From contig NC_092355.1 in NCBI RefSeq assembly GCF_963676685.1, positions 18,042,001 through 18,106,000 of the forward strand: a stretch of DNA of 64,000 bases, written 5' to 3'. Made by a program: the position numbers. This document shows, one piece after another, positions 43,001 through 46,000 of the stretch. The DNA is from Mytilus edulis. Lineage: Eukaryota. Numbering within the stretch: the stretch's first letter is position 1; each line of letters opens with the position of its first letter.

Positions 43001-46000
43001 GAATATTAAGCTTCTCAGTGATCCAAATAAGTTTTTGTCAAACTGCTATATAACCAGTGTAATTTTTCCGATAAAACGGTTGGTTCAAATTTTTTGAAAT
43101 TTTTATATTTTTGTAAAAGGGTCAAAGTAAATACTTTGTCAAAATTTTAAGAAACGAGCCAAATTAATTTTAGTTAATTTAGTGTTGGGTACCACCTTAA
43201 ATATTAACAGTGATTGATGGTTTACCCAGGATAATCTGGTGTATGGTTAGCCATGATATTATACAAGTATTCAGAAAGTAACTGGCAGAAGAAACCAAAG
43301 AGACAACCAAAACTCTTGTTTTACAAAAACCAACAATACCACTGCAAAATAGGAAATAAAAAATCAGACAGACAACATCAATGAATATTATACAAAACAC
43401 AACTTTCCAAAATCTTCATTTATGGATATTATGAAATGAAATGAATGCATGGTTCTTTCCTATGTCACTTTGTTTCTTTACAGGCCTCTTTGGCCGAGTG
43501 GTGTAAGAAGGTTATCTATAGCTTGGCTTCGATCTCTTCTTTACAGGCCTCTTTGGCCGAGTGGTATAAGAAGGTTATCTATAGCTTGGCTTCGATCTCT
43601 TCTTTACAGGCCTCTTTGGCCGAGTGGTATAAGAAGGTTATCTATAGCTTGGCTTGGATCTCTTCTTTACAGGCCTCTTTGGCCGAGTGGTATAAGAAGG
43701 TTATCTATAGCTTGGCTTCGATCTCAATTGACTAATCATCTACTTCCAAAAAATTACATTAACCTGTATTTGTTACTCTTGGTCTTTCCAGTGCTTAACT
43801 TTGCCTAGCATTACACATTATTTTGTTCATTTGAATGTTCCTGGCGGTTGTTTCAGTTTTGAACTCTTGCCACAAGCTTACACATCCTGTTCATTTATTT
43901 GTATTGGCCTTAGCCATCACCTCAATTCTTAATTTAGCTAATACCTATTTTTGTCTTTCTTTCTTTTCCAATTATATCAGATTTCTATCATAATCTCTTT
44001 TCCTGTAACCATGACATTACTGTTTGCATGAATGTTCCAGTTTCTGCTTTCATCATCTTTGTTTGACATCTTTACAAATGCTGACTTCTGCTGGGATTCA
44101 CCTTTTCAGAATCTAATGCATTCTGGGTAATATTTTCAAAAGTATATCAAAACAATATGATTGGTCAAAATCATCATAAACAATGGAAATTCAACCAATT
44201 ACATGACTTTCTGATCTGAACAATGACATTACCCATAATCCTTTTAGATTCTGAAAGAGTGAATTTTATTCAATAATGATATATTTTCAACAAGGGTGAG
44301 TAGACTTATCAACAAAACGTCTCATTTATCTTAAATCAATGTTTTATATTTATGGATCATGAAAAATTAAATAAGATATTAAAAATTTCATGTAAAAAAC
44401 AGGACATACGTAGCCATGACCAAAAGATAAAAAACATGACATGAAAAGACAAACAGTCATACCACATCTTCTTTTTTTATAAGTATAGTGAACAAAGCAC
44501 TAAAAACACAAGATTGAGCAACATATACAACAAACCTCAACTAAAAGAAACACTGCCTCTGATATCAAATAAAAATATCCTCTTAAAATATTAAGTTTGG
44601 AAATCATTTTACAGATATGGTGAAAAAACTGAATGGAGGTATAAAAAAAACACTATATCATTTAAACCGAAAACACACACTCATTGGCAATATGATATTA
44701 TGAAAATTGTTAAAACTGGTTTTCACTGAAGACAGATATTGTATATCAGGTCATTTTCTTGTAGGCTTTATTTTTTTTTCTCTATAAAACAAGCAAGTTA
44801 TCTGCGCTTATATCTAATTAATAATTATCTAAAGTTCTTATTTAATTTTCCTTTGAAATGTTAAAATCAAAATCCTGTCCAATCTTATTGAGTTGAAATG
44901 CTCAAGAAAATAGCTGATATATAGTATTTACCACATGTGTATTTGGATATGGGATTACACATTTGAATATACAGTAATTGCAAATCACATTCAGATATTG
45001 CTTCAGCATACACTGTTTACTGCAAGTGGTTTTTTAAATCTATAATTTTATCAATTACATCTCTGTATAGGTAAGTGTCTGTTTTTGACATTGCTGTTAA
45101 ATATACATTCTTTTTCCAAAGGCTGCAACAAAAATACAGGCCAACTACAGAGGTCACCAGGCCAGAAAAGAGGTCAACGACTTAAAGACAAAGAAGGAAA
45201 CAGATGAAAAAAAGAAGAAAGAAGATGAGCTGAGAGCCAAAGCAGCCAAAGAGGAAAATCAAGCTGCAACAAAGATTCAGGCAGGTTTCCGCGGCCATCA
45301 GGCTCGCAAGGAAATCAACCAGAAAAAACAGGTACGTGATGTGAAAAATACAAAAGAAGACGCAGCTGCAATTAAAATTCAATCGAGTTATCGTGGTCAC
45401 AAAGCTCGAAAAGAAATTGCAGATAAAAAGGTAAAAAGAACAGAGAAGAATACAGAAGAAGAAGTTGCTGTTACGAAAATCCAGGCAGGATTCCGCGGAC
45501 ACAAAGCTCGGCAGGAAATAAATCAAAAGAAACAGCAAAGGACAGAAACGAAAAATGAAGAGGAGAAAGCTGCGACTAAAATACAAGCAGGATTCCGTGG
45601 AAATCAAGCGAGGAAAGAAATAGATCTAAAAAAGAAAGAAAAAGTAAAAAATGAAGAAGAAGAAAAAGCTGCAACAAAAATACAAGCTGGTTTCAGAGGA
45701 CACCAAGCAAGAAAAGAAGTGAAAAAGAAAAAGGTATTTTGTGATAATCATGATAAACAGTTGTCTAACAATTTACTTAATGTAGATGATCTTGCTGAAA
45801 ATGGTGAATTTAATGAACAAAGTGAAAGTACAAAATCTGTTAAAATATTAGCTCAAATAGAAAGTACAAATTCTCCTTCAATTTTAGATAAAAGTGAAAG
45901 TACAAAATCTCCCTCAAGGCTATCAAAAAGTGAAAGAACTAAATCTCATTTAAGTTTTTCAAAAAGCAATCTTTCAAGTCACAATGTTAATGATCAAATA

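What the first reader, a model, noticed from the sequence alone, without database searches (positions are those of the whole stretch)
45122..45739. In-frame donors after successive IQ units: tunable IQ number versus giant read-through
Seen: phase-0 donor-like sites CAG|gtacgt (45331), AAG|gtaaaa (45430) and AAG|gtattt (45733) follow the 2nd, 3rd and 6th IQ motifs. The sequence character changes abruptly after KKKK|VFCDN. Coding-like phase-0 exons exist downstream of the giant exon's stop (56852, 60964). Inference: this is a composite internal/terminal exon. Splicing would give proteins with 2-6 IQ motifs plus a Pro-rich tail, while read-through gives about 40 IQ motifs. The giant part may be a former intron that became coding.
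Basis: inference. Interest (0 to 1): 0.75.

Follow-up and report, generated by a model that had tools for sequence, protein, structure and literature searches.

The report
Giant multi-IQ exon, in-frame donor sites
An 8.8-kb coding exon of an invertebrate-like gene encodes about 39 calmodulin-binding IQ motifs; three splice-donor look-alikes near its start could give much shorter proteins, but nothing available here shows that they are used.

Summary
The three donor-like sites exist exactly as described (exon ends 45331, 45430, 45733; all phase 0; after IQ motifs 2, 3 and 6). The exon starting at 45122 is one uninterrupted coding frame of 2,920 codons with about 39 IQ motifs, so the "giant read-through" product is well supported. 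The Pro-rich exon at 60964 is clearly coding, starts in phase 0 at a good acceptor and has no start codon of its own context, so it needs an upstream phase-0 donor. Alternative 3' ends are therefore likely. Which donor feeds it could not be tested, because there were no RNA data, orthologues or eukaryote collections. Statistically, only 45331 (CAG|GTACGT) stands out, as the best of 446 GT sites in the exon. 45430 and 45733 are ordinary K-V codon pairs. Synonymous-codon permutation shows no excess of donor-like sites. One post-hoc statistic (phase-0 AG|GTA) gives P=0.008. The "former intron" idea has no support: the giant part has codon periodicity, 33 further IQ motifs and none of the introns' repeats. 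Upstream exons link by phase to a doublecortin-like exon, so the gene is not a small GAP-43/igloo-type gene. Tuning IQ number by splicing is already known (myosin Ib, ASPM).

The parts
45122..53884 (+). Giant coding exon: 2,920 codons plus TAA, about 39 IQ motifs. No ATG in the first ~290 codons, so it must be spliced in at 45122.
45122..45733 (+). IQ1-IQ6 array. Motifs start at 45122, 45263, 45365, 45467, 45569 and 45668, spaced 47/34/34/34/33 aa. The units differ at synonymous sites but keep AATKIQAGFRGHQARKE. Predicted as one long helix.
45329..45337 (+). Donor-like site CAG|GTACGT, exon end 45331, phase 0, after IQ2. Best-scoring GT of the whole exon.
45428..45436 (+). Donor-like site AAG|GTAAAA, exon end 45430, phase 0, after IQ3. 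Ordinary score (29 of 446 GT sites score as high or higher).
45731..45739 (+). Donor-like site AAG|GTATTT, exon end 45733, phase 0, after IQ6. Weak (52 of 446 GT sites score as high or higher). Same alignment column as the 45430 site.
45734..47635 (+). Ser/Asn/Leu-rich low-complexity stretch between IQ6 and IQ7. Includes a 30-nt x 11.8 tandem repeat at 46362-46714. Predicted disordered from aa 226.
40058..40537 (+). Upstream exon (160 codons, phase 0/0, Ser/Lys/Pro/Asn-rich), donor CAG|gtagac.
56852..56896 (+). Candidate micro-exon, 15 codons, phase 0/0, ttttag|...|gtaagt. Weak evidence.
60964..61590 (+). Pro/Asp/Lys/Gly-rich terminal coding exon (208 codons plus TAA), acceptor cacag|GAC in phase 0, nine KPPxGDx heptads.
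54441..54597 (+). AATAAA hexamers at 54441, 54446 and 54592, which is 557-708 nt after the giant exon's stop. No more frequent than chance.
61598..61603 (+). AATAAA 8 nt after the stop of the Pro-rich exon.
32833..32922 (+). Inferred upstream exon, 30 codons, phase 0/0, acidic.
29829..29887 (+). Inferred upstream exon, 59 nt, phase 1 to 0, donor GAG|gtgcgt.
28331..28413 (+). Inferred upstream exon, 83 nt, phase 2 to 1, donor AAG|gtatga.
15998..16156 (+). Exon with the C-terminal part of a doublecortin-like domain. Ends in phase 2, which matches the exon at 28331.
13940..14245 (+). Twin 135-nt exons (13940-14074 and 14111-14245) with the same phases and a 36-nt spacer. Both read like the first half of the doublecortin-like domain.

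Best explanation
One long + strand gene runs through the window. Its exon at 45122 is a genuine 8,763-nt coding exon. It encodes six regular neuromodulin-type IQ motifs on a long helix, then a disordered Ser-rich stretch, then 33 more IQ motifs, and then its own stop. The product is a giant scaffold for calmodulin or calmodulin-like light chains, probably fused to a doublecortin-like microtubule-binding domain encoded upstream.

The Pro-rich exon at 60964 is an alternative last coding exon of the same gene. The gene therefore makes a giant IQ form (cleavage and polyadenylation before 56852) and a short Pro-rich-tailed form.

For the short form, the most likely join is from the internal donor at 45331 (2 IQ motifs). 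The sites at 45430 and 45733 are most likely incidental Lys-Val codon pairs that recur at the ends of duplicated IQ units.

Shown: the sites, the frame, the coding nature, the IQ count and the phase compatibility. Inferred: one gene, alternative 3' ends and use of 45331.
For: - Coding frame: open for 2,920 codons (P about 1e-100), other frames full of stops, codon-position GC gradient in all four segments.
- IQ content: Pfam IQ E=5.8e-129 with 19 stretches; 39 IQ-like hits with my own HMM.
- IQ1-6 differ at synonymous sites (58% mean column identity) while keeping the peptide.
- Helix through residue 225, then disorder.
- The exon has no Met in its first ~290 codons and a good acceptor, so it is spliced to upstream exons.
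- The Pro-rich exon is coding (log-odds 153) and starts 2 codons after an in-frame stop at a cacag|G acceptor.
- In the 7.1 kb before that exon there is only 1 ATG-to-donor candidate, with a negative coding score, and 1 internal candidate.
- Exon 40058-40537 and the Pro-rich exon are each other's best non-self match in the window (E 2.6e-6, compositional).
- All junction phases agree from 16156 through 60964.
- 45331 is the top donor-like site of 446, is CAG|GTACGT with G at +5 like 7 of 8 other inferred donors, and would define a 210-nt internal exon.
Against: - No transcript evidence of any kind was available.
- A donor as strong as 45331 appears somewhere in the exon in 61% of synonymous permutations, and in its first 612 nt in 16%.
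- The exon shows no depletion of donor-like sites, so the matrix may predict poorly here: 10 observed against 13.1 expected at score >=3.
- The donor matrix is generic and recalled from memory.
- The direct join 40537 to 56852 or 60964 is equally in frame.
- The composition break lies at 45733-45800, not at 45331.
- The doublecortin hit is below Pfam's cut-off (19.5 bits against 22), and there was no PDB support.
Confidence: 0.4

Rival explanations
1. Skipped-terminal-exon model. The giant IQ exon is purely an alternative terminal exon and none of its internal donor look-alikes is used. The short form joins 40537 (or another upstream phase-0 donor) directly to 56852 or 60964. That gives a doublecortin-like protein with a Ser/Pro/Lys-rich tail and no IQ motif.
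For: - 40537, 56852-56896 and 60964 are all phase 0.
- Exon 40058-40537 and the Pro-rich exon share composition and are each other's best non-self hits.
- Donor-like sites in IQ1-6 are at chance level in the matrix-based permutation tests.
- Composite and skipped terminal exons are both standard classes of intronic polyadenylation (PMC8559711, passages read).
Against: - A near-consensus donor (CAG|GTACGT) sits 210 nt after a good acceptor, and it is hard to see it being ignored.
- Post-hoc excess of phase-0 AG|GTA in IQ1-6: 3 observed against 0.49 expected, P=0.008.
Confidence: 0.3
2. Two genes. The giant exon is simply the last exon of the IQ gene. The Pro-rich exon belongs to a separate downstream gene whose small or non-coding first exon lies between 54 and 61 kb.
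For: - The giant exon has its own stop and AATAAA hexamers downstream.
- Small first exons would escape my coding scan.
- The Pro-rich exon contains an internal Met at codon 19.
Against: - The frame is open and compositionally uniform from the acceptor at 60964, 18 codons before that Met.
- Only 1 ATG-to-donor phase-0 candidate lies in 53885-60963, and its coding score is negative.
- Same strand, same phase and same composition as exon 40058-40537.
Confidence: 0.15
3. All three donors are used as a graded series giving 2, 3 or 6 IQ motifs, and the giant part is a former intron that became coding.
For: - The three sites are in phase 0 at near-homologous positions of units 2, 3 and 6.
- Post-hoc AG|GTA excess, P=0.008.
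- Composition changes near 45733.
Against: - 45430 and 45733 lack G at +5 and score like 29 and 52 other GT sites of the exon.
- 2 of the 3 other phase-0 AG|GTA sites in the exon (47926, 51226) also follow IQ motifs, which points to a property of the IQ-unit peptide (...KK|V) rather than of splicing.
- The giant part has full coding signatures, 33 IQ motifs and no intron-type repeats.
Confidence: 0.07

Closest known systems
ASPM / Asp (abnormal spindle) giant IQ exon
   Same: Tens of IQ motifs are encoded in one very large exon. An isoform that leaves the large exon out drops from 81 to 14 IQ motifs, and IQ number evolves quickly (PMC10502471, passages read). Asp carries an IQ motif of the neuromodulin/igloo type (PMC2139842, passages read).
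   Different: No calponin-homology domain or other ASPM domain was found. Pfam gives only IQ in the giant exon, and nothing of that kind in 8 of the 38 + strand upstream pieces that one search lists before 40 kb. In ASPM the large exon is an internal cassette. Here it ends in a stop and would be a terminal or composite exon.
Myosin Ib neck splice isoforms
   Same: Alternative splicing sets the number of IQ motifs at 4, 5 or 6 and so tunes lever length and force sensing (PMC6981383, passages read). This is the established precedent for 'tunable IQ number'.
   Different: No motor domain here. Myosin Ib uses small cassette exons, not donors inside a giant exon.
Calpacitins: neuromodulin (GAP-43), neurogranin, PEP-19, Drosophila igloo
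   Same: IQ1-6 are of the AATKIQAxFRGH type. They match the neurogranin and neuromodulin IQ peptides in solved calmodulin complexes (E 0.017 and 0.057). A short form would be an IQ motif flanked by disordered Lys/Pro-rich sequence. GAP-43 holds calmodulin at low calcium (PMC7494789). Igloo is called the invertebrate GAP43-like gene (PMC6917273; PMC9618489).
   Different: The better PDB matches are ciliary proteins: RSP23 (3.5e-7), CFAP91 (2.7e-5) and Sp17. No N-terminal acylation exon was found. The upstream exons lead by phase to a doublecortin-like exon. Only 1 of 6 units has Ser at the position of the neuromodulin IQASFRG serine. The igloo paper itself is not held. My memory that igloo isoforms differ in IQ number is unverified.
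Composite terminal exons (intronic polyadenylation)
   Same: An exon that is internal when its 5' splice site is used and terminal when cleavage occurs in the following intron. This is a standard class alongside skipped terminal exons (PMC8559711, passages read).
   Different: From memory, the read-through of a composite exon usually adds only a few codons. Here it would add 2,716 codons with 33 IQ motifs. Use of the donor is unproven.
RP1 / doublecortin-domain proteins (recalled, not tested)
   Same: From memory, RP1 has N-terminal doublecortin domains followed by one very large last coding exon, and DCX and DCDC2 have Ser/Pro-rich tails. The layout here would be similar.
   Different: I know of no IQ motifs in those proteins. 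A full-text search for 'doublecortin domain' with 'IQ motif' returned 9 papers. Judging by titles and abstract openings in the listing, none describes a protein with both.

Membership tests
IQ calmodulin-binding motif proteins (Pfam PF00612) | Matches to the IQ profile above the curated cut-off | tested here: met
   408.4 bits against a cut-off of 20.3, 19 stretches. 39 hits with an HMM built from 32 of the exon's own motifs, which is circular for those 32.
Calpacitins (GAP-43 / neurogranin / igloo) | Short N-terminal acylation signal (palmitoylated Cys or myristoylated Gly) on a small protein | tested here: inconclusive
   No ATG-GGN start followed by a donor scoring >=3 anywhere in 1-40000. 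The inferred upstream exons have no start codon and chain by phase to a doublecortin-like exon. The true first exon was not found.
Calpacitins (GAP-43 / neurogranin / igloo) | Serine inside the IQ motif (IQASFRG; the PKC-site role is recalled) | tested here: not met
   1 of 6 units (IQSSYRG) has Ser there; 4 have Gly and 1 has Asn. GAP-43 motif as printed in PMC7494789.
ASPM / Asp | Calponin-homology domains upstream of the IQ array | tested here: not met
   Pfam finds only IQ in the giant exon and no CH domain in 8 upstream coding-like pieces. These were 8 of the 38 + strand pieces that one search lists upstream of 40 kb. Exons outside the window were not seen.
Myosins | Motor domain immediately N-terminal of the IQ neck | tested here: not met
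   The exon before the IQ array is low-complexity with no Pfam family. No motor domain in the pieces scanned.
Doublecortin (DCX) superfamily | DCX domain PF03607 above the gathering score | tested here: inconclusive
   19.5 bits against a cut-off of 22, E=0.0011, profile positions 35-55 of 60 only. No PDB sequence match.
Composite terminal exon | Internal 5' splice site used in some transcripts | not testable with these tools
   No RNA data. Sequence statistics are ambiguous.
Composite terminal exon | Cleavage/polyadenylation site in the sequence that follows the donor | not testable with these tools
   AATAAA at 54441 and 54592, but the hexamer occurs 99 times in 64 kb on this strand.
Composite terminal exon | Downstream exon(s) that continue the frame when the donor is used | tested here: met
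   56852-56896 and 60964-61590 both start in phase 0, and all three donors end in phase 0.

The most novel reading that the evidence does not exclude
A single exon serves both as a small internal exon (210-612 nt, 2-6 IQ motifs) and as an 8.76-kb terminal exon. One doublecortin-IQ gene would then switch between a small calmodulin-holding protein with a Pro-rich tail and a giant with about 39 IQ motifs. The switch would be competition between an in-frame 5' splice site and downstream polyadenylation. The coding read-through of 2,716 codons would be far larger than in the composite exons I can recall.
Probability: 0.3. Interest if true: 0.55.

Novelty: new member of a known kind. Interest (0 to 1): 0.33.

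Why it matters
If the internal donor is used, one splice-versus-polyadenylation decision would change the calmodulin-binding capacity of the product about 7- to 20-fold (2-6 against about 39 IQ motifs) and swap its C-terminus. That would be a neat natural example of dosage-like tuning of a calmodulin buffer or scaffold, possibly on microtubules. If the donor is not used, this is an ordinary very long IQ-repeat exon whose Lys-Val codon pairs happen to look like donors. It then serves mainly as a warning against reading donor look-alikes in Lys-rich AT-rich coding sequence as splice sites.

Tried and rejected
- Homologues and look-alikes: the ESM Atlas gave nothing usable for the IQ-dense 2,046 residues (best score 0.82, below the tool's own level for a lead) or for the Pro-rich exon.
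- PDB sequence search: the doublecortin-like exons gave only one chance-level hit (E=1.3, an antibody chain) for 15999-16154 and none for 14112-14243.
- N-terminal exon: a search for a myristoylation-type first exon found none.
- Internal acceptors: a scan of the giant exon for acceptors that could pair with the donors (an exitron) found 25 modest sites, 2.9 per kb against 4.7-5.3 per kb in the introns. None is outstanding.
- Non-coding RNA: no Rfam family and no tRNA in the window.
- Literature: a 14-residue IQ peptide searched in full text gave 0 papers. 'ASPM + IQ repeats + splice variants + exon 18' gave 0 papers. 'Calpacitin + invertebrate' gave 1 irrelevant paper. The igloo paper is not held.
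- Minus-strand frames: 45182-45625 and 61020-61565 are by-products of purine-rich or low-complexity coding sequence.
- Small GAP-43/igloo-type gene: rejected as the best label once the upstream exons chained to a doublecortin-like exon.
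Full report
**The window.** It is 64,000 bases with no N and about 30% G+C throughout. It has long AT-rich introns with satellites and interspersed repeats. It reads like an invertebrate genome. No Rfam family or tRNA is present.

**The observation.** The acceptor ...ttctttttccaaag|GCT places the exon start at 45122 in phase 0. The frame opened 7 codons earlier, after a stop.
- CAG|gtacgt, exon end 45331, 70 codons
- AAG|gtaaaa, exon end 45430, 103 codons
- AAG|gtattt, exon end 45733, 204 codons

All are phase 0. 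They follow IQ motifs 2, 3 and 6, which an HMM of the exon's own motifs places at residues 48-68, 82-102 and 183-203. In an alignment of the six units, the sites of units 3 and 6 fall in the same column. The site of unit 2 falls one codon later. Units 4 and 5 have CAG-CAA and AAG-AAA there.

**The giant frame is coding.** From 45122 the frame stays open for 2,920 codons to TAA at 53882-53884. With the exon's own base composition, the chance of that is about 1e-100. The two other + frames hold 175 and 374 stops. Every segment shows GC1>GC2>GC3. Pfam finds only the IQ motif, at E=5.8e-129 with 19 stretches. A strict pattern finds 32 motifs. An HMM built from those 32 finds 39: six in the first 204 residues and 33 downstream. 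'About 40 IQ motifs' is therefore right.

Several local tandem expansions lie inside the exon:
- a 99-nt period in IQ4-6
- a 30-nt x 11.8 repeat at 46362-46714
- an 81/162-nt repeat at 48100-48409
- a 75-nt repeat at 49346-49525

The six first units share only 58% mean column identity at the DNA level while keeping AATKIQAGFRGHQARKE. They are old duplicates held by selection on the peptide. The frame has no Met in its first ~290 codons, so the exon must be spliced in at 45122.

**Change of character.** After 45733 purine content drops from 0.72 to 0.58, Lys from 22% to 10%, and Ser rises to 15%. A single-sequence AlphaFold model of residues 1-420 (mean pLDDT 63.7) is helical for 2-106 and 114-225. 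Block-mean pLDDT is about 79-91 over residues 1-200, except 59-61 around the 107-113 break. It falls below 50 from residue 226. The break is real but lies about 20 residues past the site.

**Are the donors more than chance?** I scored every GT with a generic metazoan donor matrix. Its frequencies are recalled from memory and are not organism-specific.
- 45331 scores 6.93, the best of 446 GT sites in the exon.
- 45430 scores 1.61; 29 of 446 are as good or better.
- 45733 scores 0.25; 52 of 446 are as good or better.

I then permuted synonymous codons among positions of the same amino acid, 1000 times. The first 612 nt reached the observed counts in 16% of runs at score >=6.9, 58% at >=1.6 and 42% at >=0.25. 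The whole exon shows neither excess nor depletion of donor-like sites (for example 10 observed against 13.1 expected at score >=3). Restricting the test to phase 0 gives P=0.36 and P=0.28.

One statistic chosen after seeing the data does stand out. Phase-0 AG|GTA in the first 612 nt is 3 observed against 0.49 expected, P=0.008 in 5000 permutations. For the whole exon it is 6 against 2.79, P=0.051. This is weakened by three things:
- the post-hoc choice of statistic;
- the common descent of the units;
- 2 of the 3 other phase-0 AG|GTA sites (47926 and 51226) also follow IQ motifs. That suggests a habit of the peptide (...KK|V) rather than of splicing.

Seven of eight other donors that I infer in the window have G at +5. 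Of the three candidates, only 45331 does. That set was itself picked by eye for consensus likeness.

**The downstream exons.** 60964-61590 is clearly coding. Its codon log-odds is 153, against 31 or less for any other + strand piece outside the three training exons (this exon was itself in the training set, and it scored 111 when it was not). G+C is 50% and the exon encodes nine KPPxGDx heptads. It begins at cacag|GAC, two codons after an in-frame stop, ends in TAA at 61588, and has AATAAA 8 nt later. It therefore needs an upstream exon that ends in phase 0.

In the 7.1 kb between the giant stop and this exon I found one ATG-to-donor candidate, with a negative coding score. Candidates of that quality occur at 0.043 per kb per strand in the window's non-coding parts (4 in 93,156 strand-bases). 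So 0.30 are expected here, and the micro-exon is weak evidence. AATAAA at 54441 and 54592 is uninformative at 1.55 per kb.

**The rest of the gene.** A codon-usage scan finds further + strand pieces upstream. With their splice sites they form a chain whose phases all agree:
- 15998-16156, ends with 2 extra bases
- 28331-28413, 1 leading and 1 trailing base
- 29829-29887, 2 leading bases
- 32833-32922, phase 0/0
- 40058-40537, phase 0/0
- 45122

The exon at 15998-16156 matches the C-terminal third of the Pfam doublecortin domain (E=0.0011, 19.5 bits, below the cut-off of 22). There is no PDB sequence support.

Exon 40058-40537 (Ser/Lys/Pro/Asn-rich) and the Pro-rich exon are each other's best non-self match in a six-frame search of the window (E 2.6e-6). 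Composition correction was off, so this is similarity of composition, not proof of homology.

The joined protein was not assembled, searched or folded. This leaves the doublecortin assignment and the whole-protein architecture untested.

**What it most likely is and does.**
- Shown: an 8.76-kb coding exon with about 39 IQ motifs. Its first six form a regular, predicted-helical array spaced 33-34 residues apart.
- From established knowledge of IQ motifs: IQxxxRGxxxR binds calmodulin or light chains, and neuromodulin holds calmodulin at low calcium (PMC7494789, passages). The product would be a large calmodulin or light-chain scaffold.
- The IQ1-6 peptide matches ciliary IQ proteins best (RSP23 at 3.5e-7, CFAP91 at 2.7e-5, Sp17) and the neurogranin and neuromodulin IQ peptides more weakly. 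The motif type does not fix the cell biology.
- Inferred: the gene has two alternative last coding exons. The giant form must be cleaved and polyadenylated before 56852.

The short form could arise in two ways:
- (a) from an internal donor, which is the composite-exon model. I put this at about 0.4, with 45331 the only convincing site;
- (b) by a direct join from 40537 that bypasses the IQ exon, which is the skipped-terminal-exon model, at about 0.3.

A separate downstream gene has about 0.15.

The 'former intron' idea finds nothing in its favour. The giant part has full coding signatures and 33 IQ motifs. It has none of the repeat families that occur in the neighbouring introns; the only match is 21 nt.

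**Comparison with what is known.**
- Tuning IQ number by splicing is established. Myosin Ib has isoforms with 4, 5 or 6 IQ motifs (PMC6981383, passages). ASPM isoform 2 lacks the 67 IQ motifs of exon 18 and keeps 14 (PMC10502471, passages).
- Composite and skipped terminal exons are the two standard classes of intronic polyadenylation (PMC8559711, passages).
- The calpacitin label fits the motif (neuromodulin, neurogranin, PEP-19, igloo; PMC9618489 and PMC6917273, passages). It does not fit the gene: no acylation exon was found, only 1 of 6 units has Ser at the neuromodulin position, and the upstream exons are doublecortin-like.
- I found no paper describing a doublecortin-plus-IQ protein. One search gave 9 listings, none on point judging by title and abstract opening. 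That is one search, not proof of absence.

**What stayed unchecked.**
The genome collection holds only bacteria and archaea. No orthologue could be compared, so no conservation test of the donor sites was possible.
- There were no transcript data.
- The igloo paper is not held. What I remember of its isoforms is unverified.

**Verdict.** The sites and the giant IQ exon are real. Alternative 3' ends are likely. Use of the in-frame donors is plausible for 45331 only and is unproven. The phenomenon would be a new member of known kinds rather than something new in kind.

Noticed in passing
window 13940-14074 and 14111-14245 (+): Two neighbouring exons of exactly 135 nt with identical phases (1 leading and 2 trailing bases), separated by only 36 nt. 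Their peptides align end to end without gaps (12 of 44 identical, E=2e-5). They look like tandem-duplicated, mutually exclusive exons whose spacer is too short to be an intron. Both read like the first half of a doublecortin-type domain.
   Followed up: partly
window 15998-16156 (+): Exon matching the C-terminal third of the Pfam doublecortin domain (E=0.0011, 19.5 bits, below the cut-off of 22). It chains by phase to the exons leading to the IQ exon, which suggests a doublecortin-plus-IQ protein. One literature search found no description of such a protein.
   Followed up: partly
window 46362-46714 (+): A 30-nt unit repeated 11.8 times (80% matches) inside the giant exon, encoding KENSQNLTLS-type decapeptides. 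It looks like a recent in-frame expansion.
   Followed up: no
window 48100-48522 (+): 81/162-nt tandem repeats encoding degenerate IQ-like units (AATKIQNAYKKHK) that lack the RG...R half of the motif. They score only 1-3 bits with the exon's own IQ HMM.
   Followed up: no
window 52982-53494 (+): Eight copies of an [FY]-[ED]-[ED]-P-S-P-type motif (RYEEPSP, RFEEPSP and similar) spaced 15-44 residues apart near the C-terminus of the giant protein. I do not recognise the motif.
   Followed up: no
window 61291-61500 (+): Nine KPPxGDx heptads in the Pro-rich exon. The opposite strand is also open here (61020-61565), an effect of the low-complexity repeat.
   Followed up: no
window 40076-40180 (+): Exon 40058-40537 begins with a direct duplication of a 16-residue peptide (AD[HQ]SHSRTIQNGDRSQ).
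   Followed up: no
window 43474-43725; 40553-41111; 34112-34728; 3488-4271: Intronic satellites, for example 63-nt units at 98% identity at 43474-43725. One of them gives long spurious open frames at 43440-43808.
   Followed up: no
window 2336-2626, 4839-5124, 42922-43209; also 9417-9745/16757-17078 and 21330-21532/42369-42572: Copies of interspersed repeat families (82-91% identical, both orientations) in introns and flanks. None occurs inside the giant exon.
   Followed up: partly
window 45377-45397 (+): IQ3 alone reads IQSSYRG, with a Ser where neuromodulin has the serine of IQASFRG. The other five units have Gly or Asn there.
   Followed up: no
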